DNA from: Catajapyx aquilonaris
Lineage: Eukaryota
Length of the DNA stretch: 64,000 bases
Assembly: GCA_000934665.2 (NCBI GenBank)
Contig: JYFJ02001333.1
Coordinates: 1-64,000, forward strand
Reading direction: 5' to 3'
The translations under genes were made by a program, and so were the position numbers. The notes beneath the pieces were generated by a model that was given only the letters and a program-made list of their open reading frames with translations, ran no database searches and was not told the DNA's origin. Positions within the stretch are counted from its first letter, which is position 1. Every line of letters begins with the position of its first letter. This document shows positions 5,932 through 58,901 of this stretch, piece by piece.

Positions 5932-6247
5932 GTTGATCCTGTACAGTATACCGGGTGCCATGGAAACAGACAGAGGCTCCTTATTGACCTCAATGCCATA
6001 GAGAGATCAGCAGCAGCAGCAGGAGACCTCCCACCTGTTGCCATGGCATTAGATATAAATACATTTTCTCAGTATCACATGCTGGAGACTACATCAGGAA
6101 AAATCAGGGAGAGCTTGGTTCTACGCAACAACTGCCCTCCAATCAAGATGAAGCCTGTTGAATTTCTGTGACACTGATTATTTCTGTCACACTGAAAGGA
6201 AACCATTGAATGCTGTATTGATTGACAGCTTGCTTTGTGCTTTTTAA

Positions 6248-23093: not shown

Positions 23094-24228
23094 ATTTGCT
23101 TGATGTCTCTTTGCCCAACAGTTGTTGACTTCTCTCTGTCCACTCTTTCGGTCTGGCCCACTCAGCGTCTGGTCTGGTCCAGAGACGATCTTGCTTCACA
23201 GGGGTACTAGGGAAATAAAACCGAGAGATTCCTTTAGCACGTGGACATGGAAAGACGCCATTGCAAAGTCAAGGTTGGAAAATCACCGCTACTTTAATCG
23301 CCGCTACTTTGATCTCCGCGATCGCAGCTCTGTCGCACGCCACAATTTAATACATATGGACCGGGCACAGTTTTTTGGGGAAATTTCGGCCCAATTTCCT
23401 TCTGAAATTCCAACTGGTATGGGATTCATCTCAGGTCAAGGGATGGTGGAGTTCGGTACTTACCAAAGTTGTAGGCACTACCAACATTTTAATAAAATCA
23501 CATCTGCCTTGTAAGATTTATTTAATTTTTTTAAATTGTGATACTTAAATTTTTAAAACTCAGTAAATAGCAAAAAAAAAACTTTCATCACTTAATAATA
23601 TTATTACTGTATGTACATATCTCTCATCAGTATTCACAACTCTCCTATACTACATAACATTCTGTTAACCATCAACAATAAACATTATTATCAACGTCTC
23701 TCTGTATAGACTTTCTAGTTGCAGGATGACTGATGCAAGCTAAGCGCTATAGCAATTTTCACATTTCTCGGGAAAATACATTCACAAAACATAGGGATAC
23801 ACTTCACATTGTAAAACAAGATAAAAGTAACTAATCTGCAGTTCATAATACAAAATAATAAAATAAATCGACTCTTACCTCATTCTAAAACCACCTCAAA
23901 GCAGCAAAGTGCCATTTAAATCATCAGACTTGAGGACAACAATACATTCATGATCCAATACAAACACATAATTCAGCAGTGCAGAAACACCTCGTACAAG
24001 AAAGTGACAAGTCCGTCAACAGACAAACCGTCTCACACTGGTCTCCCTTCCTTCTTTCGTACGCCTCTGACCACATTGCGTACATCATCTTCAAATACGA
24101 CATTTCATTCACAAACATTTTACTTTAACTGTTACACTGACAGGCAGCATTTAAGTAGGTGACACTTTCAGTACCAAGTCATAGACATGACAATTGCTAT
24201 TTCAGAATTCACGTACACATGGGCTAGT

Positions 24229-35354: not shown

Positions 35355-38300
35355 TCAGTTGTTATGCTGATGCGCTGCCATAAGCCTTGCATTTGCTAGA
35401 TGCGCTGCCCCCATCATCCCCGGCGAGGGCTGGAAAGACTGTGGGGGCTGTGGGGGAGGAGGCGCAAATTGGTAGTGGTGAGTAGGATGAGTAAAGGGAG
35501 ACGCTGGAGATGTGAACGCTGCGGCTGCAGCTGCAGCTGCTGCTGCCGCCGCCGCCGCCGCTGCTGCAGAGGATGGTGAGGAGGCAGGAGAGGAAGGGAA
35601 GCCCGCTTGTGGAGGCTGAGTTGGGGGTGGGGTAGGCTGGGCATTGACACATGACGACGATGGTGAAGGCCCTCCATTGCTACCATCAGGTGAGGAAGGG
35701 CCTCCCCCACCACCTCCACCCCCACCGCACGAAGAGAAGGGTGATGGAGAGTGGTTGAGTATCCCTCCACCAGTGGGCATCCCTGCTGCCGCAGACATCC
35801 CAGCGGCAGCAGCAGCCATGCCATCAAGGCCACCCATGGCAGAGGTTCTCCCAAGGAGCACCCCTACATTGCTCATGAAGAGGTTGGCCATGGAGGAGAA
35901 GAAGGAGGTAACAGCCGACATCATCTTGGCTTCATTGTCTGCCCTCCGCTCCTGCAGCTTCAGGCTCTCCTGCTCTATTTCAATCAGTTTGTGGAGCACA
36001 AAGTCATCCTCTGAGGAGGACCGAATGCGCTTCTTTGCTCGCCGGACGGGCTTTTTCCTGCACGTTAAACGAACCATAAGCAAACTTCATACAGAACAAA
36101 ATAACTAGTAACTTCTACAATCCTTCATAAAAATGATCCAACATTGAATGAATAGATTGTGATTAGTGCGTTTGGTTTTCCATAATCCTCTTTAAAACAC
36201 ATATCGAGTTCCTTAAGAAAGCTTCCGGCATGGTAGAATTTAGTCTCTTGAAATGTTACATGCAGTGAATATTAAACAGCATGATCATACCACAGTGACA
36301 AAAGTTTCATGCAAAGAGGGAAGCAAAGCCTCCTTTCATACACTACGAACAGAATCTGAGTAAAAAGTGCAACTGACTGGGAGGTTCCAGCATCAGGCAT
36401 GCTGACTCTGGATGGTGGTGGTGGAAGCTCTGGGGCCTCGTCTAGCTGGGGTTGGACGCTCTCATCAATCACTAGGCTGTGAGAATCGTCACTATAACCA
36501 TCTGACGAGCTGCACAGGCTGTTCGGCTGTGGGCTCTCCCCTCCTGCCCCTCCACCTCCAGCGCCCCCTCCACCACTACGCTCTCCTCCACCTCCGCCAC
36601 CTCCACTGCTCCCACAGCCTCCCATTGCACATGACCCTCCACCAAGTAGACCACGATGTGGATCCGCCCCACTCCTTCCTTCTGGAAAAAAGAAATGAAA
36701 TACTGTAAATATTACCTTACAATCCCATTGTGCAGATGTGACAATATAAAATTATTGACCCAACACATAAAGCAGCTGCCAGATTTCAAATAAAAGTACA
36801 CTTGAAAGACATTTCAACATGTAGCTTACAACTAAACTTTAAATATGTTTCATGCACATGCAAGCTACTGTAATACTGATTGTATAACATTTCAAAAGTC
36901 TAATAAATGACAAATTCAAAGTGAATTTTTTAAATGATACATCATTCACAGTGCATCTAAAATACAGCGAGATTTCCCCATCCTCCACCTCCTCCCTAAG
37001 AAGCAGTGGACAAAAGCTTAGGCTTGATTCTCCTTGGAAAGCATGGCCCAAAAATGATAGTATGAATCCCACCTTGATACCAACCAGGAGACATCCCTGA
37101 ACCCTGCTCGCAGTCTGCAGAATCAAGGCTGTCAGACACGTGGTGCTCTGCATTGGCTGCCCCCCCAGCAGAGGAGTTGGTCCCTGCACCACTTCCGCTC
37201 CCACCTGATGGCCTAGACTCAATAATGGCATGCATCTTATCCCAGTATGGCCAAGTTGGAGGCTCTGACCCATGCCGCCAACTGCGCTTCAGTCGCAAGT
37301 ATTCTGCCTTCAGGTTGCCAATCTTGACCTAAAAATATTTAGGCAATTCAATCACCAAGTTATATTGACAGAAGTGAGGAGAAAAATATAAGGACTACAA
37401 AACTAAGTCTATAAGTATTATGCAATAACCAGTTACAAATTTGAGGATCTACCCTTTCCTGCCATCTACGTCAAGTTGCATAAATCGAAAAATGAGTTAC
37501 TGCGCATAAAGAATGAAGATACCTTAGAAAAAGAGCTCCAAATGTTGTGGCGAAACAATAACTTCTCTGCTTGTATCATTTCTGATGGAATTTATGTTGC
37601 ATACCAAAATTTGTCAACACTCTTTGGCTAGTATCACAATTGGTACACTCACTGGCATTCCACTTATTCATGTGCAATACCTTCTGCAAGGTCTTTTGTC
37701 AATGGGGGCACTCAAGGAAAAATTGTTGGGAACACATGATGCTATAAAGCCAAAGGAATTCTGTGGAAGATCTGCAATCTTAACTATCCCCTTTTTCTTG
37801 ATGTGTCTGTAGGATGGTAAATTCAGCTTGTACAACATTTTGCATCAACTGACCTTGCACTCATTGTCATCACGGTCAAATCCCTTCTCTTGCATGTAAG
37901 CAGCAATGGAAGCCCATAGCCCAGAGTGTCGATAGAGAGTCTTGAATTTCTCTTGTATGGAGGACTGTCCCCAGATGCCCAGCAGAGCAATTATTTCTTC
38001 ATGACTGAAGTTCTTGCTGCGTTTAGTGCTGTTGGCCTTGCTGGGGCTTCCTCCCGACTCCCCCATGCCACTTCCTCCCCCACCACTGCCACTTGCACCA
38101 CCTCCCTTGCCCTTGCCCACTGCTTCTCGAATGGCACTTTTCAGGGCACTTCTGGATGAAGATGAGTAACGATCTGCCAGGAACAAACTTTACTCATTAT
38201 AATCACCAGCACAGCCAAAGGCCAAAATGACTGTGCACTAAGGCAAGAGAAGCACAATCCTTTCTTCCTGCAGACTAGGCTACATCAAGTATCAAAGGCA

Positions 38301-38936: not shown

Positions 38937-40400
38937 CCTCTTCTTGCTATCTTCTTCTCATCTACTCCCTACTCACTCCGCAGGTGGTTAGGTCAATCAA
39001 ATCACAGCCAACTTATTCATTGCCAGAAATGCTGTCACAGCCTCATCAGTCCTCTTCTTTGGACCCCTCTGAAATAACAGCAGGGTTACAGTTTTACGTT
39101 AGAGTATGATTGTCTGATTTTATATTGGTCAATAATTAAGTAGTGCTTCCCATCCAAGCTAAAGCCAGAGGTTACCCAACTCTACACAACATGAACTAGG
39201 GAGGAAGGCTCTTGCTTAGAATGAAACCCAGGACCTTTCCACCTGTGGAGACATGCATGACTTCCGTCCCACTCTGCTTCCCTAAGTAATGCATCTATGA
39301 GGCAATCAAATCAAAATTGGCAAAGAAAATTCTTAAAGCCAGGTGTTGGCTCACAAAATTTGAGCAAGTTTTGGTATTGTGGCTCTTATCATTGTGGTGC
39401 TTAATGTCTTTGATGTGACATGCTCAACTGGCATTGTAATTGTGATGGTGAGCATCTGCAAAAAACCGTAGGAAAATGCAAACACCACTTGGTCTCATTA
39501 AGTTCTGCTATCGTAAAGAAGGGTTATGTCCCACAAAATATTCGACTCTAGCAATGGCACGAGTAGCAGAAAATGGTTTTTCAATAATTCACATAATTCC
39601 TCAATATTCCAGCCTATCCCTTACCTCATTCATTGTATACCAACATGGAGTTATTCATTTTACAAAGCACATAACTTTGATTCAGAGTGGTAGGCTATAA
39701 AAGATGAACACTTCCTCTTAGGCTAAGGTTCCTTGTGGTATTCTATGGCAAATAATTTCTCTGGTTGGTTATGTGAATTCAGCTCCATAATGGAAATAAC
39801 TTCACTTGAAATAGCATAATGGCATGGTCTGCACTGGCTTGCATGCTTGGGCAGAAGGGAAAGGGTAAGAACAAATGGTGGGACCAATATCCTTACATCT
39901 TTATGCATCGATGCGAATTTTTTTTGTGTTTCAGAAAATACTTATCAAGTACAATACTCAAATGGCCTCCAACATCGCCCTTACCCTGTTCCTCCAGCCC
40001 AAGTATACCAGCCAATGACAATACAAGATTTCAAGTGCGATTATGTGTCTTGGAGCTGAAATCGACAAAATCAACTACAGTTACTTCGCTTTAGAACACC
40101 TCAAAGAACTGCATCCAAAAGAGGAAGTGTGCACCTCTTGTAATGTTAACCAGCTGTATTGTTAACAAACCTTTTTGTGGGTTAAGAATTTTTATCCAGA
40201 ATTTCATAAGATGGATGTACAAGTTGCACATTTACCTAATGTAATCAGAAACTAATGTCCCATATGTGCAATAACATGAAAGTAGACAACAATGCCACAA
40301 CTGTAACCCTACTGGCGGCAGGTACAAAAACTTTGTCCCTGTTAATATGGACAGCAACAGGCAAAAAAAAACACACACACACACACTATGCAAACTCTTA

Positions 40401-40828
40401 GGGCCTAGCCACACTAGACGGAATCTCCGGACGGAAATTCCGGTGCGGTCCGCTCAAAATTTTCAAACACATGGAAGTAAACTGGATTCCGTCGGGATGA
40501 GACACACACGACGGTTTTTCCGTTGTTCCGTCGAGCACCAGCGGAAGACCCAGCGGAAGAAATCCGTTCCGTTTTCCGTCGGGGGCAATAATCCCACTGC
40601 AATGTATAGATTCCGGCGGGGCATGGCCACATCCCGACGGAGAAAGAGGGTCAGGTGCACCCTTCTTCTCGCCCTGGGCATTTTCTTGCAAGGAAGAAGG
40701 AGTTGTTTTTCACTAGTGGGCCGCAAGGCGGCAGCACAGTCGACGGAAATTCCGCATGACAAAAAGAACCTTCCGGACAACCGCACCGGAATCTCCGTCC
40801 GGAGATTCCGTCTAGTGTGGCTAGGCCC
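40401..40828. mobile_element. PIF/Harbinger-type MITE
   Basis: TTA TSD; near-perfect ~48-bp TIR gggcctagccacactagacggaatctccggacgga.attccggtgcgg. Confidence 0.85.
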
Positions 40829-42349
40829 TTAGTACTACATACTCATAAGCTTTTAGCTACTGTAAGAAATGGTTTATTTCTCACGCTTGTGTAGGTGACA
40901 TTAAAAACCACGCAGGTGGCAAGTTAATTGCAAAAGCTTTTTTATAAACAAACCATCACACACACATGGTCAAGGAAAATCACACTCTTTCTTTGTATAT
41001 TCCTATTGCCACATTAAATCTCCTTGCAACCAATCAAGTTGTAGTTGCAGACTGGAAAACACTCCTACAGAATGAGAAAATGCATTTTTACTTGCACCAG
41101 CTTGACCGTGAGCTTGACCTATTATTAAGAGTCCAACATAAAAAGTCTATGACTATTCTTCTGAAATGCCTGTGTGACAGCTCAAATTCATCATTAACGT
41201 TGCAGGTGTGCCAGAGTGCCGTCGTTAAAAAGTAATCATTTTCTCATTTAGGGAGTTGAACCCACCAGACATGGACGCATGACGAGCACTTTTGAAACAA
41301 ACCACTTCCTACTAAACAACATCTGAACATATAAATAATTTGTTAATAATTCATAGCAAATACGATGTAAAAAAAAACAACAGTAGCTACTTATGAAGCT
41401 GGGGAAATCACGTATAGTTTGATAATGACATACATCATCACAAGTGCATATGGTGAGTAATAAAAGAATCGCCTGGAAGCTGTATAAGTTTGCACATGAA
41501 CAGATGGTTTACCAGTTGTATACTGCAGGATAGGGAAGGTCGTGAATCACTAATTGGCAGCTGCTTAACTATACGAATAAAAGGGAACTTGGGTTCGAAT
41601 GACAAACATTTTGCTGAATAGCTAATTTCCTTCGTGTGTCAACATCAATTTGCTTCTGCATGGAGGCATGCACCACCTCAGTTAAAACAAACACAAACAA
41701 AACAAAAAAAGTTATTTCTGCTGCAAGGTTTCAATGAGTTCACTGAAAAATCATTGATGTTTCTATCAAACATGAACTTGCAGCATCACATTTTAAGCTT
41801 TGTGACTTTGTTCTTCTGACAGCGAGCAGAGAGCCACAAGAATAATGATGGAAGATCAGAAGATCCGATAAGTTCACTGCTGGTGATGCACCTAGTTTGT
41901 GCTCGACTTTCCTCATGGCAATAGCAATAGGTCTTACGTCCACAAAAATACCAAATCCCCCACCACACAAAACAACAATACAATGTGCTACAGAAGCTAG
42001 AATGCTATAAGTATATGAATGCCATTGGACCCCTTGATCAGGGCAGTATCCTCAGACAATGAACAATGCACTGATGAGCATTGCATCAACATAATGCCAA
42101 ATGCTACTCTAGGAGAACTTCAAATGTTTGATGTGAACTTTATGGCAGGCTATCAACTGGCTCAGCCAGCTTTCTATTATTGTTAAGCTTCTGCCAGTGG
42201 TCTACTACAATTGAGCACTTTTGCTTTTGTTTAGTCAAGCAAGCCATCAGGCCTACAACAAATTTATGTAACTTGTACTCCCACAGCCAATGAATCACCA
42301 CCATCAGACGTTACATCGCACAATATCAGCCTGAAACTGTACTTGAATA

Positions 42350-42500
42350 CACTGTAAACCACAAAACATTAAAAGAGCATCACTAGCGAGTCTCCCACGG
42401 AGCATCAATTTTTTAAATGCTCTTGTGTTGCTTTTTGGCAACAAAAAAACATCACAAGCGGACGCTCCATGGGGTCTTTTAACGTGTGTGGTTTACGGTG
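42350..42500. mobile_element. Internally deleted copy of the 56368-56588 MITE
   Basis: cactgtaaaccacaaaacattaaaagagcatcact shared with 56368-56588; ends ggtttacggtg. Confidence 0.7.
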
Positions 42501-42539
42501 TTCACGCTGCAAGGTTGGTCAGGGTTACATGTCGACACG

Positions 42540-43170
42540 ACTTACGGTAAATGCGCATGCCTCCAGTTGGTGTACGACCAACGTTCTGTAACCTCACCGT
42601 GCTCTGCATGTTCCAACCCTCCCAGCCCAACTAGGCTTGTCCAGTGTACCTCATCAGCTCACCTGGTGTTCCCTCCATCCCTTCTGTTCCGTGTCCGGGC
42701 AGGCACGCCCCTGTGCTCCACACACCCACACACACACTACCCGGCGCGTCCCTCTCTCTCTCTCTCTCAGCCTGGGAACATGACTCCGGGGCTAAATCCG
42801 GGCGGTTCGATGTCTGCCCGTGTCACGCACCGCACCGCACGCAGCCTGCTGCTCCTTCCAACCGCAATCGCTGGCTGTGCTGCACGCCTAATCTACCTGC
42901 CACCCACGGGGGATAGGGGGCGGGCCGGGCGGCCTCTAGACCTCCTCGTCTCTCTCTCTCTACCACACACTGCACGGGCCCCGCCACCGGGGAAAGGGTC
43001 GAGGGCGGGCGGGCAAGGAAGGGCTCTGAGGGAATAGTAAAAAAGAAAGAAGGGGAAGATTACAGCAGGGACTCGGGGGGGGTGTGGGTAGTGTGGATGA
43101 TCGCGCACCACGCAGCTCACAACGCTCATCGGATTTGTAGTACTATATCGATGCGACGTATCGATGCAGC
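42540..43170 (-). promoter_or_regulatory. CpG-rich probable promoter/first exon of the Myb/SANT-like gene
   Basis: GC-rich block, GC boxes, minus-strand donor-like sites (~42545, ~42663), two TATCGATG DRE-like motifs at ~43146 and ~43159. Confidence 0.5.
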
Positions 43171-43243
43171 CCACCCGGTTCAAATCAGGCATTATTACAG
43201 TAATATTGTTCTGTACTGTACTGTACGTATACTCATACACGGT

Positions 43244-43315
43244 ATCATCATCATCATCATCACCACCACCACCTCCTCCATCATCATCATCATCATCATA
43301 ATCAAGCACCACCAC

Positions 43316-43347
<32 letters not shown>

Positions 43348-43364
43348 TAATCAAGCACCACCAC

Positions 43365-43427
<63 letters not shown>

Positions 43428-43428
43428 A
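43244..43428. repeat. (ATC)n microsatellite with an internally duplicated unit
   Basis: Runs of catcatcat separated by a repeated aatcaagcaccaccacctc. Confidence 0.95.
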
Positions 43429-44238
43429 ATTCACAATCTGTCACTCCACCCCATAAACAAGTTGACTCATAACATCTTGCTCATCACCTACAGTAGCTTT
43501 CACTTTCCTTATTCAACAATTAGAGGACAGAGTAGTATCTGGTAGTATATAGTGCCCGGTGGTGATTCACTTAGATGACTGTCACTTACAAAAGTTGGGA
43601 ACACACCTTGATTTTGTTTTTTTAGCATATAAAAGAACATATTTTTTTAAAAAAAGGTGACGCGTAAGTTTTGCATGGCTTAGCGGTCATAGTGACACAA
43701 GTGGTGTGTGTGTGTGAGTTTCAGCTTCAGGGCTTTCCAAACATATTTATTATTGGCAATGTTACAACCTTACCCTGTTACAACCAACCCCAATCTCCCT
43801 TATAACATCATGGAGGAAGGTCAGATGGATCATGTTTCAATATCTCAAAAAGGTCGTGAAGCTCTCTGACTGTTTTTGACAATTGCCTGCAAAGTCAATG
43901 TGGGGTTGGGAAAGCATTTAAAAATTTCTACAAACAGTAGCCTACAATTAAAGTGTATTTAATGACACCAATGCAACACTGATTCCTCTGAATATATTCA
44001 CTTTTTTTTTGTTTCTTATAATATCTTGCATACAGTAGGTATAGAAGAACATCCTTGCTTATAATTGCTATATCTGCTGAAGTCAGCAAAAACATCGCAT
44101 TATAATCATCCTCATCAGAGCTTTACAATCATAGTCAGAACCTTGCGGACGACTCAACAACAATAAATTAAAATATCTGATAAATATGAAGTAAATAAAT
44201 ACACTGTACTCCTGATTATCCAGGGGGTTGGATTCATC

Positions 44239-45550: not shown

Positions 45551-46681
45551 TTAACAACTGCAACATTGTGTCATTTCCTGACCTTGGTTGCAATGCTGAA
45601 TTGCAAGTATTGAAATCGCCTTGTTTACAAGGTATGATGACAAAAGGTCAGGGCTTTCGTCTGTGCAGTTTTTCTTGCCATTTTCTGCTTTCTTTTCATG
45701 TGGTTTTTGGGCAGTCTCCTCTGTTATCTGAGCAAGATCCTCTTTCGACAGACCTTTGGAGTTGTTTGAAGATTCATTCTTTGTACAGCTGGCATCATCA
45801 CGTGGAACTCCAAATGAAATTTTGTAAGATGTGTTGAATATTTTGCGGTACATGTTTTCGTAGGCCTTTGATTCTGGATACCTCTCTTTGTACATTAGGT
45901 AGAGCTTTCCTACAGAAAGATAAAATTTGGTAATTTAAATTAATATACCCTGTGTAAACAAGATCATGTAATGGGCGATACTTACTGACATTGAGATCTT
46001 CACTGAGGTAAAAGACCTTGGCTTTTTTTGTACTGTTATGTGACTTGTGAGCCATCAGTGACTTAATGTGCTCATGCACAGTCTGAATATCACTTTGTGG
46101 AACAAGACCGGGATTCTTTTTGTGTCTGCCACGTTGATCCTGAGGACTTCGAGCATACGTTGTGAGACTTTTCTTCAAGTATTGTAGCCGCCTGTTGGTA
46201 ATTCCAAAAATGCTCAGCATCGCCTTGTAGCAAACACGGATGTCCAAAGGACGCTCATCTCGGAGTACATGCAACTTGTACTTGTAAGAGTGGTCCTTCT
46301 CTTTAGCACCTGCACGTGGCCTTCTTCGCCTGACATGTCCGCACGTAATCATTGAGCAGAGGAACGCGTCCTGTTCATCTTTGGATCTGAGTATGTTCAT
46401 GTATGCGAGGAGTTCACATCTCTCCTGTTCAGTTACATTCTTGTAGCACTCCCATCTCACACACTTGCAATCTTCACCTGTAATGTTAAAATTATTATTA
46501 TTATTATCGCCCAGACTCTGCCAGTAAAATCAATATACAGACATATTTGTCGAGTAATGTCACCTGGCACATGTGATGCGAGTCTCAGCCTCTTCTTTTC
46601 TTCCCTAGCGTTGACCGTACCCCTCTTCCGCCTCTTTGGCTTGCTGGCCAGTTCAAGCGACGATTCCTGATCGCTCGACAT
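45551..46681 (-). CDS. Spliced DNA-transposase-derived ORF (~322 aa) apparently lacking the catalytic domain
   Basis: Exons 46681-46564, 46477-45986, 45909-45551 (969 nt, in frame); C-x-C..C N-terminus, EQDAFL, VCYKAMLSIFGIT..RL, DQRGRH, HIKSL..SH, YL.EDLN...LY..Y, YRKIFN...ISFG.PR.D, resembling Sola1/Chapaev-like transposase N-termini (family uncertain). Confidence 0.65.
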
Positions 46682-47375
46682 CCCTTTTTCTTCAATCACC
46701 ACCACCAGTACAAGAACTCAGGAAGATGTTCCATTCCAATATCCGAGTTTTCGAATATTTCCGCACCAGGGCGCTGGGGTGCCACATTTTCATTCTTAAT
46801 CCACATGCTGAATATTTGGAATTTAACCTCGTAGTGAATATTTAGATTTTTCATTTTTTATAATTCGGTAAAATCGACGTATTGTGCAAGACGGCCATTA
46901 CAGGGCGGGCCATTCGAATATTTCCACATTATAAACACAGTACATTATCAAAGAAGCCAATAGAAAAGGGCCAGTGTTAATAATAGGTTAGGATGTAAGT
47001 TTAACCGTGGAAATGCCCCTGTTAAATGAGTAACAATGTGCTTACAAAACTTAGCCATATAGTACACAATGGAGCATTTATCCTCTGCATAGCCCTGGAA
47101 AGATGGGATCATTGTAAACACAAAGCATAAACCAAATAAGAAACAAAAAAATGGAAAAATTTGGGCAGTATTTCTATAGTACTCAGCTTCTTGAATCATG
47201 AGTATATGAGTGGAAATAATTACAGACAAAATCACATCAATTTTTCATTCTTCTTGTCACAATAAAAAAATATAATGACGATCCATCCTCTGAATATGCG
47301 CAAGGAACACTTTTAATCTGGGACTGCAATATTGTAAATTGACCATGTCAACTAAGAATCTTAGAGTCTCAGCAA

Positions 47376-47566
47376 TGTACTATTAACCGCAGAGTAATGT
47401 CACACTGTCGTTATGTGACGGAATCCACGACTTGGTGTTTAGCATGGGTTTGCCGAGTTACAGATGTTAATTTGGCAATATTCCGCAATCCACAACCCAT
47501 GCTAAACAACAAGTCGATGACACCATCACATAACAATGCGACAGTACTTTTGCGGTTAATAGTACA
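47376..47566. mobile_element. MITE
   Basis: tgtactattaaccgca.agta..gtc.ca.tgt / acagtacttttgcggttaatagtaca. Confidence 0.7.
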
Positions 47567-47735
47567 CATATTTATCAAGGGGTGGTACGTCCTTCAGATG
47601 CAGCCATATTACTCTTTCTGGTGTAAAATACTCAACATTGAGTTTTTGACTACTGACTGCAAGTACAAAATTATAAAAACAACATGATGAATCCTTAACA
47701 GAATTATTATGCAAAAGTCTGCTACACCATGTGCC

Positions 47736-50700
47736 TTAAATCTCAAAGCTTAGTTCCTGAGTTATGTGAGAAAGATCGTTGATCTGGTCAGTTCGCAACC
47801 TCTCTGCAACCTGATTCACCTTGGCCTTCAGAGAGTGCACCACATGAGATCCATAGTTTCCCCCATGCCTTAAAGTCTTTTCATAGAAAGCTTGATACGT
47901 CAGGTAGAGCACCTCATCTCTCCGCAAATGTTCACAGCAGCCTTGAAGAGACATTCTTGCCCTCTTGGCCGGCAAGCCAAAATCAGTAGTAGCCCTCCGC
48001 TTGGTTCTCTTGTGACACTTGTCCTCACTAAGACACTCATTCACATTTGTGCACTGTAGTTCCACCTGTTGGCACTTGTTCCCAAATATACAGTCTGCAG
48101 GACTGCTTTCAGTGGGATGACCATAGTCGCCCCCAAAGCGCCAACTGCCACCACGCAGCATGTCCCACAGCCTGTCCCCAAACCCCAAGATGCAGTTTAT
48201 CAGAAATTTAGGGTTGTCCCTGAATGGCTGATGAGGACCCTTGCTACATTTTTTAGGAAAGGCAAGAAGGATGCCATGAAAACGCAGGGAGGCCATAAGG
48301 CAGGCCTGCCATACATTCCTCCTGATGCGCTCCAGAGAGTTGTAGGTGGGATCCACCAACATCGAGCCACACTTCAGGGTGTAGGGCATCCGGCGGAGGC
48401 TATTGCGGAGGGCTAGGCCAGGCTTGGCACACCGACTCATTCGCATAGAATGGATCATATCTTGTGATGAGTAACTACTGTAGTCGCCACGGGTGTGCAG
48501 AGTGCTGGGATCCAGTTGGATACCACAGAAGGAAAACCATGCATCAGACCTCAAGCAGTTGACCTGAAGGAGAAATAAGCTATGAAGTTGAATCTTATAA
48601 TTACTCCACCTACTATTAACAGAGTAGTTAATTACAAATGTTTTCTTTCACCCTTTTGAGATATCAGCTTCCGAAGAACACCATGAATGATACCATGCCA
48701 GAAATTCAACAACATCTGAAGCTTTGTGAGCAAGTGAGTACATATGCTTGTTACAAATTCAATCATACATGCAAAAGTTACTATTTTCTCATTTGTTCCC
48801 TTGATATTCCAGTTCAATTGATCTAGAAAAGTATTGATCATGCATTATCACTACAGCAAAGCAACTAACCATGGGATCAGGAAGATTGGTGGCTGTCTTA
48901 GTAACATTGATCTTGCAGCCATACTCAGCAATTCCACCAGACATCCTCTGCAAGAAACTCTCCGCCCTCTCCTGACATGGTGTTATGAACAAGTAGTCAT
49001 CCACTGCTCGAATGAATATTTCATCTCCATGCCCTGTATATTCTTTCAAGACAGTGGCATCCATGTGCCCATAGTACAAGTCACACAGTGCGGATGACAG
49101 ATTGGCACCCTGTGGAATGCCTCTTTTCATCTGGAACAGCTGACCTTTGAACCGAACTGTTGCAGATAGGTTCTGTATAATCTCATTTGCAATTATTGGC
49201 ACATTGACGTAGCCTACAACTTTGCGCTCTCCAATAACACAGTTTGGCAGCAGGTCCTCTGGGTAACCATCTCCAAGTAGGGTCACCTTTCGTGATTTCC
49301 CTACCTTTACAGGGTTGTTACGCAGTGGCCTTGAAATAACTAGTGCCATTTCCGGCAGGTTCTGGCTTGTGATCTCAATGAGTTGTTCTAGGACTTGCTT
49401 CATCTTTTCATGCAGTATGCTCCCATACGCATCACATATGTCAAGTCGAACGTAGTATAGCTTGTCGCCTGGTTCAAAACAGTTCTCCCGTAAATTACTC
49501 CACTTTTCATGCAGAAATGTCAGGTTGCGTGGGTTGACCCTGTCTGCATTCTTCTGCACCCAGTAATGTAGAAGCATAAGGTGTTTCTTGGTTTTTCCCA
49601 CAGGTACACTGGCAGGACGCATCATGAGCGGACGAATCCCATTCCCTTTGGGCATGAAGCGTAAGATTAGGTGATCCCCTGTGTTCTCTGGCTCCAGTTG
49701 TTCCTCCTGGTTATTCTCCAGGTTCACATCCTCAAATTCTGGCACAGTAAGAGGCTCCAGACACTTTTGCTTCAGCTTGTCTAAGGCCTCCACTTGCATA
49801 CCTTGCCACATTGGCTTGGGATAAAAATAGAGCTGATATCGGCGGCGATTCTGTGGAGTGACATACATGACACAGGATACCGCCACAAGGGCATAATGAA
49901 TCAAAAGCCAAGAAAACACCCGTGACAACAGTGATAACCGCAGTGAGTGCCTGGATATTGAGCCAAGCCATGCCACTCCTTTTACGCCCACTCCTGACAT
50001 GACCTGTCCCAGTGACATGACCTGATACTGTCCCATAAGCACTGCCTGCTTGGACACAGCCAATAATCGGTTGCGGTTTTTCTCAGTTCCCAGAAGCTCA
50101 ACAGGCACCACTTTTCGCAAAACAGTGCGCACGTACTTTGCTACCAGTTTTGGGTCAACACAACTGTTCAGTGAAGCACCGTTGCTTTTCACCAGACTCT
50201 TGAAGACAGACCAATACCTCGTGCTTTTGTGATTTTTGATAAAAGTTGCGAGAAGTGGTCTGAGGGGGTTGAGGGCCATGTTGGTTGACGTTATTTGCAT
50301 TACTCCAGGACCCACATCCTCTGTGATAATGGAATATACCAAGTGTTCTATTGGGTCACCTTGACGTACTTCCATTTGGGAGAGCACATGCTGCACAGGC
50401 CAGCTCATCCCGACAGTCGGGCTGTGCAGCATAGTCTTTATTGACACTGGATGTGACGCTCGGTAAGGGACTAATCCATCCGACGTCATCTTGACTGCCT
50501 TCGTCTTTCCACAAGGCAACACCTCCGTATTTATGTTGGTTGACGGGTACACTGATACTGTCATGACTGCAGTAGATCTCGACTCAGGCATTTGAGATGG
50601 AGCAACCACCGAGGGCATTTTTCCTGCCACCCTTTTCTTGCCTTTCACTTGCACTTTGATCTTCAGCGGTGACCCATTAAGCTGCAACCATATCCCCGGC

Positions 50701-51074
50701 TTCACCTCTCTAAACACGCAGCACTTGAGAACCAAAAACTTCAGAAGTGGCATCCCATACGAACTGTACAGCCTCTTCCAACAGGGATCCTTTTGAACCA
50801 TAAGCAGAAATTCACTCTCCATGCGATCTTCCGACTTGGTCACATACCTCCCAGCAAGTTGCTCACATGCTTCCTCAAAAGTTTGTATGGAGTCAGTAGG
50901 GGTCAAGTTAGGAGCATAGCTGTATGCAACTACAAGCTCCCCTAATGTGAAAGACGTAGGATTTGGCTGAATGTTCATAATAACTGACCCAGAATCCTTG
51001 CCTTCCAGGACATGTTTCGATATGAACTGAAGAAACGTTTCCACATGCGTATAGGTCTTAAGGAGCAGTTCCAT
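47736..51074 (-). CDS. TERT: Telomerase reverse transcriptase (~1010 aa, two exons)
   Basis: Exons 51074-48870 and 48563-47736 (phase-0 GT-AG intron); TEN/GQ-like W..L...G..LL..L....VF...W.QL.GSPL; QFP (VVPVELLGT.KN); T-like MYVTP..YQLYFYPKPMW; motifs 1/2 LRFMPKGNGIRPL; A LDICDAYGSI; B' GIPQGANLSSALCDLYY; C RAVDDYLFIT; D YGCKINVTKT; E WFSFCG. Confidence 0.95.
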
Positions 51075-51277
51075 CACTCCGGATGAATTTTTCTGCAGAT
51101 ATCAAGACGTATCAAGATGATCTATCTCTCCCTCTTGATGGCTTGTTTCTGTGCTGCCCCCTACGGCTGATGCCCCGGGGCCGCCCCTGCTCCAGTTACG
51201 CTCTCCCGCGCTCAATGCAAGCAGTCCACTGCCATTGCATGGATGTGATGGTGGTGGTACCTGGTGGTGGGAAAAAG

Positions 51278-51340
51278 AACTGAATATTCATCTTGCAACC
51301 CTGCACATTCAAGTATCGATACAACCCAAGAATATCGATA
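51278..51340 (-). promoter_or_regulatory. Putative TERT core promoter: two DRE motifs plus Inr
   Basis: TATCGATA at 51314-51321 and 51333-51340; minus-strand TCAGTT at 51283-51278. Confidence 0.6.
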
Positions 51341-52840
51341 ACCGCAACCTTTCGAATGTTGCACATCACTTTCCAATTTCATTTTAAAATGATGTGTTTT
51401 CAGGTCTCATTTCTGATATTTTCATCAATTGAATGCTATCAACAATACTACATTAGTACAGCACATTACTATGTTGCATAATGGTTCTCCAAATGCATTT
51501 AGAAGCAATTTCACCATCATTCATCACTTAACAATTTCACGGTAATTGAGATCAGCATATAAATACACAAAGACTTGTGATATCCTTCTTCAATTGAGGC
51601 CCAACATTTTTTATTCATTACAATACATGATAAGTAGTGATAATCCTCACTTTTCTTGTCACACAGTACCAGTGAAGTGACTCTTCCCAACAATCCTTTC
51701 TTAAATTGCCTTTTTTAAAATTTATTGATCACACAACATGCTTTTCTTTCTGTTGTTTATCTGGTTCCTTTTCTTTTTTTTGCATATGAAACAAGACCAC
51801 CAAAAAATGTACATGTCAAAAACAAGGGTCAGAAAGAAAAGTCGGTCTGCAATAATATTGGGGCTGGAATGGTCAAATAATATATTCTACACGGATAGTA
51901 ACACTTCACACACTAGGGAAAGTTATGTGAGTAGAGAGAAGATATATAAAACAAAGTAGGTACATGGAGAAAAGAAATTAACAATGAAAGCGTATGGGTT
52001 GCAAAGTTCATTGCATTAGGTTCCTATGAGGCCACTCCCTCTTGTGGAAATCACTCAAAAAGAATCCCCACCAACACACTGAAATGTTATGTACAATTTT
52101 ACAAGGGCAAACAAATACCAACCCTGCATTTTACGATATTTTGAAATAGTCATTGCCGTTATGATGTTCCAGTGGCTGAAGCAACTGGTTGTGAGGCCAG
52201 TCCACTGGAAGGCATGGATATCTCATGTCAACAGTATGCATGGTATCCGAGTGATTTATGATTAGCGTGGATTTTGTTCCTGATGTGTGTTCCTTGTGCT
52301 GCACTTTCGATAAAAGCATTTCCCAAGGGAAGAACAGAAAGGCTCTCTATCACTCTTGTGCTGCGACAACATGCTTGCTTCTCTACTTCCACAGCAAGAC
52401 AGGCAGATTACAGACACAATATCTTTATTTCTATGCTGTTAATGACATGGGAAATATGTGACAAGCACGTGAGACATTTAGGTGCCTTCTGCGTAAGACG
52501 AAAGACGCAGTGTCAAAATCTTGTCACTGCACCAAAATCCACACTAATAACCAGGCTCAGTATATTCAAATGTTTCCTACAAGTAGTGTGTATCAAAATT
52601 GAGGAGAAAAAAAAAATGATTCACCCCACTCAAGTTCATGCCTCTCCATATGAATGTGCCACCATCACTTATTTCTCTCTTCCACATCCTTAGCTTATGC
52701 CTTTTTGGAACCACTCGAGTAATCTTTGAAATATTTAATTTTTATTTTATTTTGTAACGTTCCATTTCCACCTGTCCAGCGGATGCAAGTTGTTCCAACT
52801 AACGCCCATCAGTTTCTCCTTTGCATACAAACTTGTATAA

Positions 52841-55885
<3,045 letters not shown>

Positions 55886-56367
55886 TTAGAGCTATTTCCT
55901 GGAATAAAGAATTTCTATCAGAATGCAACTCTGCAACTAATTTTGTACTGTAATGAATTACATACGAGTATAGGCTTTTACTGTACCAAGGCCATATGCG
56001 AAGCATTTTCATCAATCAGGCCAAAAAGTATTTAAAATGTACACATTTAAATGTGGTCTGTAAGATTGGAATTTACAAACTTTCATCTCTCGTGGCCACT
56101 CAAAATGGAAACCAAGCAGACAGATAATAAATTTGAGCTCAGAATTGTTGCGATTACTTTGCAAGAGTTTCAATTACAGAATGGCTGTGTCATAATAATG
56201 GCAACAATATTAATACAACTAATAATTAAAATATTGTGACAACTGTGCCATTCTTTGGCCTGGAGCAATGTGGGTAATTTAAATCCCAGCAACTCAAATT
56301 GCTGGAAAAAATATTCTACTATGTCAACAAAGCAGGCTGTCTGAATTTTTTAAAACCCCATACACTA

Positions 56368-56588
56368 CACTCCAAACCGCAAAACATTAAAAGAGCATCA
56401 CTGGTGAGTCTTGCATGGATCATCAATTTTTGATGCACTTCTAATGCTCTGCCAATGCTCTTGTGATGCTTTTTAGCAACAAAAAAGCATCACAAGAGCA
56501 TGAGCAGAGCATTAGAAGAGCATTAAAAATTGATGTTCCATGAGAGACTCACCAGTGATGCTCTTTTAATGTTTTGTGGTTTACAGTG
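56368..56588. mobile_element. Palindromic MITE in Rab7 intron 1
   Basis: TA flanks; aaaacattaaaagagcatcactggtgagtct mirrored by agactcaccagtgatgctcttttaatgtttt. Confidence 0.8.
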
Positions 56589-56879
56589 TAGTCAAGCAAC
56601 TTGCCAGTAATTGCATGCATAAATCAATGCCAGAAATCCTCATTAATGAATTTTTAAAAAATTTGTTAATTATCCTTAATTATTTTTTGCTTGCTGATTA
56701 TTGTCTGATATTTATGGATAGATAGTTTGTTTAATCCCAATGAGAAATTATACATGCCCGTTCTGGGCGACTTCTGATATAATTCAAGCTGGCCAACTGT
56801 CTGCGGGGAAACCTTAGGTGTGCGATCTGTCACCACCCGTCAAATTTACCTGGATGACCCCAGAATTAGACATGTGTAA

Positions 56880-57050
56880 AGGGGCGTTTACATGAGAGCG
56901 ATTTGACAAGTGAAGAATGAAGTCATCACTGAGTAACGTAACCAATATTGTTTGAGGTGACAGTAACAATCGATTTTCGTCTCAAACAATAGGCTACTGG
57001 TTACTCAGCGTTATTATCGCCAATCAAATCGCTCACATGTAAACACACCT
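56880..57050. mobile_element. Short TIR element, Harbinger-like
   Basis: aggggcgtttacatgagagcgatttga / tcaaatcgctcacatgtaaacacacct; TAA/TTA flanks. Confidence 0.55.
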
Positions 57051-57578
57051 TTAAGCAGAAACACGTTTATTACAATAATTCGTTTTAATACCATCTCATG
57101 ATTTTCAATGCATTACGACTGGAAACTTGTCAATATGGACTGATTGTACTGCTATAATCGGTAGAAATATTTCCTATCAGAGACCGACACAATTTGAAAT
57201 TGGAATAACTCCCTCGATAAATTGGGCACACCACTCAACTTCAATACGTTACAATCAAGTAATTTTCACTGCAGCGCACAGGACACTTGATATGCAAGCT
57301 ACCTTCTATTAAAAGCTACGCAGTGCTGGCAGCATGTCAACTGTCCCTAATCCCAATTAGCTCTTAACTATTATGCAAAACACACCTTATGCCAACCTTT
57401 TTTTCCCCAACCAAGATAGGCAAGTTCCCCCCCTCCCTCCCTTCCCGCCCACTTCCTTCCCCATCCGCCCACCACCGATCATTACGCAAGTACGGCCACA
57501 AACAAAAACGCGTACACATCGCAGCAACAATCCGTATGTACTCCGCAAATCCGGACCGATTGCGAGTAGTTCACTTAC

Positions 57579-58210
57579 TCTTCTGGCCTCGAATGCAGGT
57601 CACGGGTTCCGAGCCAGACGGCGAGACTGACGATTGCGGAGAGAGAGAGAGCTGGTGGGGGCGGCTAAGCCTGGGCAAGCTGAGGTCCGATTCGAAGCAG
57701 AGAGGAGGCGCCCAGGCAGCCAGGAACAGAGTGCAGTGCACCTCCAGTCAGCCGATCACGGGCACAAAATGGCGGGAGGGGGAGGGAGGGTGGGAAGGAG
57801 GGGGCGGCGAGGGGGGGGGGATGGATTGGAACAAAGTAGCACAACTGCTACAAATCGCAGCCACTCTGGTCACGTCCCGCTGCGGACGTTTCTGTGTGCA
57901 CTTAGTAGCTAATAGCTATTTGTAGCCGTTATTTTCTCTGTGTTCAAAGCTGTTCAAAGTGGGGGAAGGTGGGGCGATCACGGGATGGTGACGTCATCCT
58001 GAGGGAATAAGGGGGGGAGATGGGTGAAGGAACGTGACTGGCGGGTGGCGATTAAAAAAAAAAAGAGGGACATTGACGGAAAAAAAATGTGGAGGGGAAG
58101 GTTGAGAAAGGACTTGAAGAGGGGAGGGGAATCAGCTGTTTGAGCAGCTGCGTATGAGTGTGCGTTTTTGTCACATGCGTGGGCGCGACTCACACCACAC
58201 GTGGATTAGT
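57579..58210 (-). promoter_or_regulatory. Probable Rab7 non-coding first exon and promoter
   Basis: Minus-strand donor GTAAGT at 57578; GC-rich block; YY1-like aaaatggcgg (~57766), CRE tgacgtca (~57989), E-box cacgtg (~58198). Confidence 0.6.
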
Positions 58211-58901
58211 CATTCACACACATGCACATACATCATGGAATAGTTGGGAAAGAAAAAAAACAACATTCAGAACAATAATTATCTTATGTATGATTTCTTG
58301 TGCATTGGATGCAATTACTCATACTTTCAGTCTTATTTACTATTTACAGCTGCAGTATATGTGCATGTGTAGAACAAGTGGCTGATGGAAATCCATTCAT
58401 ATCTAGACAATGCTCACAGGGAATGATCATGTGGCCAGATGAATGGAGGTATGCAGGAGTTATGTGCATTGGTGACAGCCACATTCCACAGCTGTTAGGT
58501 ACAAAGTTTGATCCCTGAGCAAATGATGGAAGAGATCAACGGGTTTTCGCTGCAGTTTTGGGTGGTCATGCAGCAAAATAAACACAGTGGTTGAAAAATG
58601 GAACTTGTAACAACCACATCTATGGCCAAATACTTCAATTACAAACAATATTGTAACTAATACCAATATCTCCGTACAAAAATAATACTGCTGCTAACAC
58701 ATGTTGCAGCTCGTCACTGAGTTTCACACAGTTTCATGTCCCACAGACACTCGCACTCTCACATTAGTCTTGCTGGCACAGAGAAGATAAATGCACAATG
58801 AACACATGCTAACCACCTCTTCAGAATGCAGAACCAATGCAAAAAAATGACACTTGCATTTTGGCACGTCTGAAGTTGACAATAACATTGAGTAGAGCCA
58901 T

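What the first reader, a model, noticed from the sequence alone, without database searches (positions are those of the whole stretch)
51075..51340. TERT appears to have a 2xDRE + Inr promoter and two uORFs
Seen: two perfect TATCGATA palindromes about 33 and 52 bp upstream of a TCAGTT Inr (putative TSS ~51281), a GC/G-rich ~205-nt leader, and two short uORFs (51240-51196, MQWQWTACIERGRA; 51235-51212, MAVDCLH). Known: TATCGATA is the DREF-binding element of proliferation and replication genes in Drosophila, where DREF has also been linked to telomeric retrotransposon expression; upstream ATGs occur in silkworm TERT. Inference: telomerase transcription is coupled to proliferation through DREF and dampened translationally.
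Basis: partly seen in the sequence, partly recalled or inferred. Interest (0 to 1): 0.7.

Follow-up and report, generated by a model that had tools for sequence, protein, structure and literature searches.

The report
Paired DRE-like motifs upstream of TERT
Two identical eight-letter DNA words of a kind that switches on growth-related genes in fruit flies sit just upstream of a telomerase gene in an unidentified arthropod, which probably marks its promoter, but where the gene's RNA starts could not be tested.

Summary
The sequence facts are all correct. The window's only two exact TATCGATA words lie at 51314-51321 and 51333-51340, 240-266 bp upstream of the ATG (51074, minus strand). The gene is a one-intron TERT (Pfam RBD, RVT_1, TERT_C).

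The pair is far beyond chance: 0 of 1000 shuffles gave such a pair, globally or in 300-bp blocks. Identity stops at the motif edges, so it is not a recent tandem duplication. A second pair, CATCGATA x2 at 43146-43166 on the same strand, heads a CpG island that looks like a neighbour gene's first exon. The paired word is therefore probably a general promoter element here, not a telomerase-specific one.

The rest is weak:
- TCAGTT occurs at exactly chance frequency (50 found, 50.0 expected).
- The two uATGs are fewer than shuffles give (2 against 4.19).
- The leader has no special fold (z -0.47).
- The same pyrimidine tract also reads as a TCT-like initiator or as a 3' splice acceptor.

No RNA run, whole genome or orthologous promoter was available, so the TSS, DREF binding, conservation and uORF use are untested. 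Verdict: real motif pair, probable DRE-type TERT promoter, modest interest.

The parts
51333..51340 (.). distal TATCGATA palindrome (DRE-type), -59..-52 from the putative +1
   Evidence: pair statistics
51314..51321 (.). proximal TATCGATA palindrome, -40..-33 from the putative +1; 19 bp start-to-start from the distal copy
   Evidence: flanks match the other copy at only 3/12 and 3/12 positions
51278..51283 (-). Inr-like TCAGTT (A at 51281); putative, at chance frequency
51272..51279 (-). TCT-like polypyrimidine initiator match (YYCTTTYY, TTCTTTTT) overlapping the Inr
   Evidence: 49 matches on the minus strand of the window
51261..51279 (-). pyrimidine tract plus CAG (13 of 15 pyrimidines): 3' splice-acceptor look-alike, the rival reading of the Inr/TCT stretch
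   Evidence: 30 such sites in the window, 0.23 per kb per strand; the only one on the minus strand in 47000-52500
51075..51281 (-). putative 207-nt leader if the TSS is 51281; 54% G+C; holds a GGGCGG box (51181-51186) and a TCCCGC E2F-core-like word (51204-51209)
   Evidence: fold z-score -0.47; no canonical G-quadruplex pattern
51196..51240 (-). uORF1, 14 codons plus stop; T at -3 (weak context)
51212..51235 (-). uORF2, 7 codons plus stop; gcaATGg (purine at -3, G at +4)
51094..51260 (-). possible 5'UTR intron (CAG|GTACCA ... TCTGCAG|A); removing it leaves a 40-nt leader with no ATG. Untested
48870..51074 (-). TERT coding exon 1 (735 codons). The start ATG follows an in-frame TGA at 51104-51102, and the N-terminus aligns with the N-termini of TERT homologues
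48564..48869 (-). the single TERT intron, 306 nt, phase 0, GTTAGT...CAG, between motifs D and E
   Evidence: read by eye from the sequence and the two frames
47736..48563 (-). TERT coding exon 2 with stop (motif E and C-terminal extension)
43146..43166 (-). second pair: CATCGATA twice on the minus strand (TATCGATG on plus), 13 bp start-to-start, at the upstream edge of a CpG island
42663..43140 (-). GC-rich putative first exon of a neighbouring minus-strand gene. It has TCT-like pyrimidine tract 43028-43062, a possible ATG at 42678, and the donor CAG|GTGAGC. The next recognisable coding ORF downstream is Myb/SANT-like at 37845-38189
   Evidence: the exon is inferred, no RNA
51602..53000 (.). 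high-copy repeat bounding the TERT upstream region. Contig depth is 115-152 against 2.4-3.0 over the TERT exon, and the contig diverges from the window at 51602

Best explanation
The two TATCGATA palindromes are a real, maintained cis-regulatory pair in the compact proximal promoter of a one-intron TERT gene. About 0.5 kb of unique DNA lies between an upstream repeat and the ATG.

Most likely they are bound by a DREF/ZBED-type BED-finger factor. By analogy with Drosophila, that factor recruits the TATA-less initiation machinery (TRF2-type), so that transcription starts a few tens of bases downstream, around the TCAGTTCTTTTT stretch at 51283-51272.

A similar pair heads another putative promoter in the same window. 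The element is therefore probably a general housekeeping or proliferation promoter module of this genome that TERT uses, not a telomerase-specific switch.

Shown: the motifs, their non-randomness, their motif-limited identity, and the TERT gene model. Inferred: the binder, the TSS, and the effect on expression.

The two uORFs are in the DNA, but whether they are in the mRNA, or matter, is open. I put about 0.25 on a measurable translational effect.
For: - The only 2 exact TATCGATA in 64 kb lie 19 bp apart and 240-266 bp upstream of the TERT ATG.
- 0 of 1000 global shuffles and 0 of 1000 block-local dinucleotide shuffles give such a pair.
- The flanks of the two copies agree at 3/12 and 3/12 positions, which is chance. 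Identity is confined to the 8-mer, so this is not a fresh duplication.
- A second pair of 7/8 matches (CATCGATA x2) lies on the same strand at 43146-43166. It sits at the upstream edge of the window's richest CpG island, which ends in a good splice donor.
- At least 2 close ATCGAT pairs occurred in 2 of 1000 global shuffles and 0 of 1000 local shuffles.
- Composition switches from 33% to 54% G+C just downstream of the pair.
- The region has no other copy in the window and no ncRNA or tRNA match.
- The ATG at 51074 is the true start by N-terminal alignment.
- Literature, passages read: DRE is the commonest Drosophila promoter motif, and promoter 8-mers peak between -100 and +40 (PMC1779564). 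DREF sits in a complex with TRF2 and is enriched at TCT-type RP promoters (PMC5737516). DRE/DREF serves proliferation and housekeeping genes (PMC7471704). A putative DRE plus Inr was annotated in a springtail metallothionein promoter, and the allele with a mutated DRE had the lowest activity (PMC1913499).
Against: - No TSS evidence of any kind.
- TCAGTT is at chance frequency (50 found, 50.01 expected), and no TATA, DPE or E-box was found.
- In Drosophila, Inr occurs in only 4.2% of DRE promoters against 13.8% overall (PMC1779564). '2xDRE + Inr' is therefore not the canonical pairing.
- The TERT upstream region is only weakly CpG-enriched: at most 12 CpG per 300 bp, o/e <=0.68. The window's clear islands have 16-26 CpG.
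- The pyrimidine tract plus CAG at 51279-51261 is the strongest acceptor-like site on that strand within 5 kb, so an upstream exon is possible.
- A Daphnia TSS preprint finds a canonical Inr at about 2% of genes and never mentions DRE (10.64898/2026.08.31.748272, passages and term count). Fly promoter grammar may therefore not transfer.
- Whether this genome has a DREF orthologue is unknown.
- The second pair is non-palindromic, matches 7/8, and has a different spacing (13 against 19 bp).
Confidence: 0.5

Rival explanations
1. The motif pair is functional but is not a DREF-driven activator. It could be bound by another ATCGAT/CGATA reader (a Cut/Onecut-type homeodomain or a BEAF-like boundary protein). 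It would then act as a boundary or repressor site between the upstream repeat and TERT.
For: - Each palindrome holds two CGATA words, giving 4 in 27 bp.
- The pair lies between a high-copy repeat starting at 51602 and the gene.
- In Drosophila, BEAF competes with DREF for such sites, and DREF/TRF2 act as negative regulators of TART (PMC3726405 and PMC7471704, passages).
- The second pair shares only ATCGATA, not the full palindrome.
Against: - That BEAF-32 is restricted to drosophilids is my recollection, not a call.
- The other binders are recalled consensus similarities only, and nothing here tests them.
- Both pairs sit at the upstream edge of GC-rich leaders in gene orientation, which is what a promoter element does.
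Confidence: 0.15
2. The TSS is elsewhere. TTCTTTTTCCCACCACCAG|G (51279-51261) is the 3' splice acceptor of a 5'UTR intron, or a trans-splice site, and a non-coding first exon lies further upstream. The palindromes would then be intronic, or an enhancer.
For: - 13 of 15 pyrimidines plus CAG. Only 30 such sites occur in 128 kb of both strands, and this is the only one on the minus strand in 47000-52500. It is stronger than the proven TERT acceptor, which has 12/15 by my count.
- A CpG-rich stretch lies 5.6-7 kb upstream, at 56726-58275.
Against: - The DNA directly upstream is AT-rich and then a high-copy repeat.
- DRE-type words cluster near TSSs where this has been studied (PMC1779564).
- The second pair also lies directly upstream of a GC-rich exon-like stretch.
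- About 6% of 266-bp segments would hold such an acceptor-like site by chance.
Confidence: 0.15
3. One reading: a focused Inr promoter at 51281 produces a 207-nt unspliced leader, and its two uORFs dampen TERT translation.
For: - Both uORFs exist, are short (14 and 7 codons), and end 121 and 137 nt before the main ATG. That layout permits re-initiation.
- uATG2 has a purine at -3 and G at +4.
- Bombyx and Tribolium TERT are reported to carry upstream ATGs and show weak telomerase activity (PMC10590340, a passage citing Osanai 2006).
Against: - 2 uATGs against 4.19 +/- 1.40 expected, so if anything the leader is depleted.
- Fold z-score -0.47.
- Inr at chance frequency and without a DPE.
- A GT...AG pair at 51260/51094 would remove both uORFs.
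- No conservation or ribosome data.
- One full-text search for TERT with uORF found 1 paper, by its title a review of RNA localisation, judged unrelated from the listing alone and not opened.
Confidence: 0.2
4. Chance or neutral sequence: the two words have no function.
For:
- Neither conservation nor expression could be tested.
Against: - 0 of 1000 shuffles in two designs gave the pair.
- Both CpG-containing words persist in a genome with CpG o/e of 0.475.
- A second pair stands at another putative promoter.
Confidence: 0.07

Closest known systems
Drosophila DRE/DREF(-TRF2) promoters (PCNA, DNA polymerase alpha, a subset of ribosomal protein genes)
   Same: - The exact 8-bp palindrome TATCGATA, in two copies.
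- TATA-less, with no DPE.
- A TCT-like pyrimidine stretch at the putative start.
- A gene linked to proliferation.
   Different: - The organism is not a fly. Earlier scan notes guess a springtail or crustacean-like arthropod, which I did not check.
- The genome is CpG-depleted (o/e 0.475).
- A DREF orthologue, binding and the TSS are all untested.
- Drosophila has no TERT, so this target gene has no fly counterpart.
DRE in the 5'UTR promoter of the Drosophila telomeric retrotransposon TART (PMC3726405)
   Same: A DRE word at the promoter of the reverse transcriptase that maintains chromosome ends.
   Different: - There DREF/TRF2 mutants raise TART expression, so the effect is negative regulation.
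- TART is a retrotransposon, not telomerase.
- It has a single conserved site, not a pair.
Bombyx mori and Tribolium castaneum TERT genes (Osanai 2006, as cited in PMC10590340)
   Same: Intron-poor TERT with upstream ATGs in the leader.
   Different: - Those genes are cited there as lacking the N-terminal GQ motif, which I did not test in this gene.
- They are cited as intronless, whereas this one has one intron.
- Their uATGs were seen in cDNA. Here the leader is only predicted.
Crustacean TERT genes (Lai et al. 2017, PMC5405514)
   Same: Intron-poor structure. Daphnia pulex TERT has one intron and Parhyale has three.
   Different: That paper holds no occurrence of the word 'promoter', so it offers no promoter comparison. 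This protein is at most 32% identical to any cluster representative found.
Orchesella cincta metallothionein promoter (PMC1913499)
   Same: An Inr (TCAKTY) plus a putative TATCGATA DRE in a non-dipteran hexapod promoter. The allele with a disrupted DRE had the lowest activity.
   Different: - A single DRE, with a DPE present.
- A stress gene.
- The DRE there is also only a consensus match.

Membership tests
DRE/DREF-type promoter | exact TATCGATA (or WATCGATW) word(s) | tested here: met
   two exact copies at 51314-51321 and 51333-51340
DRE/DREF-type promoter | word lies within about 100 bp of a mapped TSS | not testable with these tools
   No RNA holder was listed and the one run laid was low-depth DNA contigs. 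What is known is only the distance of 240-266 bp from the ATG.
DRE/DREF-type promoter | motif recurs at other promoters of the same genome | tested here: inconclusive
   One further pair of 7/8 matches sits at a CpG-island putative promoter, 43146-43166. The other CpG islands that I read (4526-6100 and 22526-23575) hold none. No whole genome is held.
DRE/DREF-type promoter | a DREF orthologue (BED finger plus hATC) is encoded and binds the site | not testable with these tools
   no genome held; binding needs an experiment
DRE/DREF-type promoter | conservation of the word upstream of orthologous genes | not testable with these tools
   No close homologue was found. Of 6 metagenome TERT loci, none reaches a 5' end and none holds TATCGATA.
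Arthropod Inr-focused core promoter | TCAGTY on the gene strand at the TSS | tested here: inconclusive
   TCAGTT is present at 51283-51278, but the word occurs at chance frequency (50 found, 50.01 expected) and the TSS is unknown.
Arthropod Inr-focused core promoter | partner element (TATA at -30, or DPE at +28..+33) | tested here: not met
   no TATAWAW or STATAAA, and no RGWYVT at +28 on the gene strand
uORF-regulated mRNA | uATGs lie inside the mature 5'UTR | not testable with these tools
   This depends on the TSS and on a possible intron at 51260-51094.
uORF-regulated mRNA | uATGs kept against the usual depletion, or conserved | tested here: not met
   2 uATGs against 4.19 +/- 1.40 in shuffles; conservation is untestable
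TERT | telomerase RNA-binding domain, RT motifs and C-terminal extension in one gene | tested here: met
   PF12009 1.7e-21, PF00078 3.3e-11 and PF21399 7.5e-11; human TERT 4.8e-35; 1506 homologues at E <= 0.001

The most novel reading that the evidence does not exclude
In an arthropod that still has telomerase, TERT is driven by the DRE/DREF-TRF2 promoter system. That is the same system that acts on the telomeric retrotransposon TART in Drosophila. A DREF link to chromosome-end maintenance would then predate the loss of telomerase in flies and have been inherited by the retrotransposon-based system. The paired YATCGATA plus pyrimidine-initiator layout, seen twice in this window, would be that lineage's version of the module.
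Probability: 0.12. Interest if true: 0.6.

Novelty: new member of a known kind. Interest (0 to 1): 0.3.

Why it matters
How telomerase is switched on and off outside vertebrates is almost unknown. The searches made here found no paper that analyses an arthropod TERT promoter, and the metazoan TERT survey read here (PMC5405514) never uses the word 'promoter'.

A clean, statistically solid pair of DRE words in a 0.5-kb promoter gives a cheap, direct experiment: mutate two 8-mers in a reporter. It also gives a simple comparative test across arthropod assemblies.

If it holds, it links telomerase to the proliferation/housekeeping promoter class and gives context to the DREF-TART connection in flies. 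As it stands it is a motif-based prediction, not a demonstrated mechanism.

Tried and rejected
- RNA evidence: the look-up of sequencing runs listed no RNA holder. The single run, X1, proved to be low-depth DNA contigs and laid nothing on 50024-51601. It says nothing about the TSS, splicing or expression.
- Whole genome: none is held. Genome-wide motif enrichment and a search for a DREF orthologue were therefore impossible.
- Orthologous promoters, protein routes:
  - The word-index protein search gave no hit at E <= 1e-5.
  - The exhaustive search gave 1506 TERT relatives, but none above 32% identity and none with genomic context.
- Orthologous promoters, metagenome scans:
  - The scan with the single protein gave 0 confirmed loci out of 24 pattern matches.
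  - An 8-sequence alignment was too divergent for the tool.
  - A 4-sequence alignment gave 6 loci. L003 is cut off inside the gene at its 5' end. L005 and L006 show one TERT exon among introns holding transposon ORFs. I judged L001, L002 and L004 from the table alone: L001's match starts at base 6 of its contig, and L002 and L004 are short contigs matching only from query residues 471 and 653 on.
  - 0 of the 6 loci hold TATCGATA.
  - None is an orthologous promoter, so this is no evidence on conservation.
- Earlier scan notes: none in this genome mentions TATCGATA, and no window elsewhere holds a stretch like this TERT.
- Leader structure: no excess folding (z -0.47) and no canonical G-quadruplex, only a long-loop pattern at 51207-51157.
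- Other motifs scanned in 51075-51420: no E-box, TATA, strict E2F site, Ohler motif 1, 6 or 7, NRF1, Ets, CRE or human-type DRE. Only one GGGCGG and one TCCCGC turned up, both inside the putative leader.
- Transposon origin of the promoter: rejected within this window, since there is no other copy.
- Tandem duplication as the origin of the pair: rejected, since the flanks match only at chance level.
- CpG island at 40226-41025: it is a MITE-like element with 53-nt inverted ends, not a promoter.
- Small RNA genes in the region: none.
- Literature: two of the ten searches were badly framed and gave nothing useful. 'BmTERT' returned 0 papers. PMC6512322 is not held. The Parhyale cis-regulatory preprint holds none of the terms DRE, DREF, Inr or core promoter, and the locust core-promoter paper does not mention DRE.

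Full report
**What is in the sequence.** On the minus strand, the region reads...ggt TATCGATA ttcttgggttg TATCGATA cttgaatgtgcagggttgcaagatgaatat TCAGTT ctttttcccaccaccag gtacc....
- The two TATCGATA words (51333-51340 and 51314-51321) are the only exact copies in the 64-kb window. Shuffles predict 0.29.
- TCAGTT lies at 51283-51278. If its A (51281) is +1, the palindromes span -59..-52 and -40..-33.
- The stretch from 51281 to the ATG at 51074 is 207 nt, 54.1% G+C and 28.5% G. The 260 nt upstream of the pair has 33% G+C.
- That stretch holds exactly two ATGs.

**The gene.** The long minus-strand frame from 51074 carries Telomerase_RBD (1.7e-21) and RVT_1 (3.3e-11). The next frame carries TERT_C (7.5e-11).
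- The best solved relative is human TERT at 4.8e-35.
- By eye, from the sequence and the frames, exon 1 ends at 48870 (…PDPM|GTTAGT). One phase-0 intron of 306 nt follows, and exon 2 starts at 48563 (…ccttcag|GTC AAC…, giving VNCLRSDAWFSFCG, motif E).
- An in-frame TGA lies at 51104-51102.
- The N-terminus MELLLKTYTHVETFLQF aligns with the extreme N-termini of distant TERT homologues. ATG 51074 is therefore the start codon, unless an upstream coding exon exists, and I saw no sign of one.
- An exhaustive profile-free search found 1506 relatives at E <= 0.001. None exceeds 32% identity.
- A one-intron TERT fits the intron-poor TERT genes reported for crustaceans, where Daphnia has 1 intron and Parhyale 3 (PMC5405514, passages).
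- Earlier notes of this scan guess that the genome is an arthropod, possibly a springtail. I did not test that.

**Is the motif pair more than chance?** Yes.
- In 1000 dinucleotide-preserving shuffles of the window, none produced two TATCGATA within 30 bp. At least two copies anywhere occurred in 3%.
- CpG-containing words concentrate in CpG-rich patches, so I repeated the test shuffling inside 300-bp blocks. Again 0 of 1000 gave a pair. One copy fell in 51075-51400 in 0.6% of shuffles, and two copies in none.
- The 12 bases on either side of the two copies agree at 3/12 and 3/12 positions, which is the chance level. The pair is therefore not a recent tandem duplication, since identity is confined to the 8-mer.
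- The 526 bp upstream of the ATG have no other copy in the window.
- They hold no tRNA or Rfam family at gathering score.

**A second pair.** The hexamer ATCGAT occurs 8 times in the window, which is a chance number (7.24 expected). Four of the eight form two tight pairs.
- The second pair is TATCGATG twice on the plus strand at 43146-43153 and 43159-43166. On the minus strand, which is TERT's strand, this reads CATCGATA twice, 13 bp apart.
- On the minus strand it sits at the upstream edge of the window's richest CpG island (42251-43400; up to 26 CpG per 300 bp; o/e 1.19).
- That island runs through a pyrimidine tract with TCT-like matches (43028-43062), a possible ATG at 42678, and a good donor, CAG|GTGAGC, at 42663/42662.
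- The next recognisable coding frame downstream on that strand is Myb/SANT-like (PF13837).
- Two or more close ATCGAT pairs arose in 2 of 1000 global shuffles and 0 of 1000 block shuffles.
- That this is a promoter and first exon is my inference, with no RNA behind it. If it is right, the paired YATCGATA word is a recurrent promoter element in this genome rather than something special to telomerase.
- The CpG islands that I read at two other gene starts (4526-6100 and 22526-23575) hold no such word.

**The weaker parts of the finding.**
- TCAGTT occurs 50 times in the window against 50.01 expected. TCAGTY occurs 0.64 times per kb per strand. One such word in the 50 bp downstream of the pair has roughly a 3% chance, and one somewhere before the ATG roughly 15%.
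- There is no TATA box, no DPE at +28, no E-box and no strict E2F site.
- In Drosophila the Inr is under-represented in DRE promoters, at 4.2% against 13.8% overall (PMC1779564, table legend read). '2xDRE + Inr' is thus not the classical combination.
- The stretch directly after TCAGTT (TTCTTTTT, 51279-51272) matches the TCT polypyrimidine initiator pattern. In flies the TCT motif encompasses the initiator of the ribosomal-protein genes, which use TRF2, and the DRE present in a subset of them could recruit TRF2 through DREF (PMC5737516, passages). The second promoter also has TCT matches downstream of its pair. This is a post hoc observation and I treat it as a lead.
- The same stretch, TTCTTTTTCCCACCACCAG|G, also looks like a 3' splice acceptor (13 of 15 pyrimidines plus CAG). 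Only 30 such sites occur on both strands of the window, and it is the only one on the minus strand between 47000 and 52500. A distant non-coding first exon therefore cannot be excluded.

**The uORFs.**
- Two ATGs in 207 nt is fewer than dinucleotide shuffles of the leader give (4.19 +/- 1.40; P(<=2) = 0.12). Their presence needs no explanation, and mild depletion is what real 5'UTRs show.
- uATG1 has T at -3. uATG2 reads gcaATGg.
- Both uORFs are short and end 121-137 nt before the main ATG, a layout that usually allows re-initiation. That rule is general knowledge, not tested here.
- The leader folds no better than shuffles (-63.7 kcal/mol; z -0.47) and has no canonical G-quadruplex pattern.
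- A GT at 51260 (CAG|GTACCA) and an AG at 51094 (tcttgatatctgcag|A) could define a 167-nt 5'UTR intron. Removing it leaves a 40-nt leader without any ATG.
- If transcription started upstream of 51291, a 31-codon uORF would open there. It begins MNIQFFF... and lies in frame with uORF1.
- That Bombyx and Tribolium TERT carry upstream ATGs I saw only as a secondary citation of Osanai 2006 (PMC10590340, passage).

**Context.**
- The window's CpG o/e is 0.475 with discrete CpG-rich islands, the pattern of a methylated genome.
- The TERT upstream region is only weakly enriched, with at most 12 CpG per 300 bp and o/e <=0.68. The clear islands have 16-26. It is not a typical constitutively open island.
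- Low-depth DNA contigs from the one run available show depth 115-152 from 51602 upward, against 2.4-3.0 over the TERT exon. One contig diverges from the window exactly at 51602.
- A high-copy repeat therefore bounds the promoter, leaving about 0.5 kb of unique DNA with the pair in its middle.
- No gene is visible on the opposite strand nearby. The next gene upstream is a RecQ/BLM-type helicase on the same strand. A bidirectional promoter is therefore unlikely.

**What could not be done.** No RNA run was listed, no genome is held, and no orthologous promoter could be fetched. The TSS, splicing of the leader, genome-wide positional enrichment, presence of a DREF orthologue and conservation all remain open.

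**Literature.**
- DRE/DREF is known as a fly system, with a human relative, ZBED1, that binds a different word, TGTCG(C/T)GA(C/T)A (PMC7471704, passages).
- A recent Daphnia TSS preprint reports a canonical Inr at about 2% of genes and does not mention DRE (10.64898/2026.08.31.748272, passages and term count).
- A springtail metallothionein promoter was annotated with Inr, DPE and a TATCGATA DRE. The allele whose DRE is disrupted had the lowest activity (PMC1913499, passages).
- DREF and TRF2 mutants raise TART and HeT-A expression in flies, and TART has a conserved DRE in its 5'UTR promoter (PMC3726405, passages).
- My searches for TATCGATA with telomerase (4 papers, all on Drosophila) and for 'TERT promoter' with insect (51 papers, 15 listed) showed no arthropod TERT promoter analysis. 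Supplements were not consulted.

**Verdict.**
- The motif pair is real, statistically solid and probably functional. The most economical reading is a DRE-type proximal promoter element of TERT (confidence about 0.5), shared in kind with at least one other putative promoter in the window.
- The specific TSS, the Inr, DREF as the binder, and translational dampening by the uORFs are unproven. The sequence evidence for the Inr and the uORFs does not exceed chance.
- It is a new instance of a known kind of promoter element on a gene whose invertebrate regulation is unknown. That makes it a testable lead of modest interest rather than a surprise.

Noticed in passing
window 51602-53000 (and beyond): Contigs of the one public run have depth 115-152 here against 2.4-3.0 over the TERT exon, and one contig diverges from the window exactly at 51602. 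This is a repeat of roughly 40-50 copies directly upstream of the TERT promoter. Its 143-aa ORF (52262-52693) has no Pfam hit.
   Followed up: partly
window 40397-40832: MITE-like element with 53-nt terminal inverted repeats (96% complementary) around 330 nt. It accounts for the CpG-rich patch at 40226-41025, which is therefore not a promoter.
   Followed up: partly
window 54048-54264, 56364-56592, 56877-57053, 42342-42458: Three foldback (self-complementary) elements lie in the TERT-RecQ intergenic region. The one at 56364-56592 has a related copy at 42342-42458. The lone AATCGATT at 56969 lies near the centre of the 56877-57053 foldback.
   Followed up: no
window 23281-23325 (minus strand): The putative TTC4 promoter holds a perfect-register tandem pair, AAAGTAGCGG(C/T)GATT x2 (23310-23281), next to a GCGATCGC palindrome (23325-23318). 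This is another paired word at a CpG-island promoter.
   Followed up: no
window 5683-5688 and 5734-5739 (plus strand): Two TCAGTT words lie in the strongest CpG island (4526-6100), upstream of a plus-strand zinc-finger gene. One reads AATATCAGTT, much like the AATATTCAGTT at TERT.
   Followed up: no
window 45551-46529 (minus strand): Two ORFs of 243 and 127 aa directly downstream of TERT have no Pfam match. They may be a transposon-derived or orphan gene.
   Followed up: no
window 43240-43430: A long (ATC)n-type microsatellite lies immediately upstream (minus-strand sense) of the second CATCGATA pair.
   Followed up: no
whole window: CpG o/e is 0.475 overall, with discrete islands reaching o/e of about 0.85 to 1.67. 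This is the pattern of a substantially methylated invertebrate genome.
   Followed up: partly
L005 and L006 (metagenome contigs): Two closely similar contigs carry one TERT exon (motifs B'-C). The flanking introns hold ORFs that look like a pogo/Tigger-type transposase by eye. So some animal in those samples has an intron-rich TERT.
   Followed up: no
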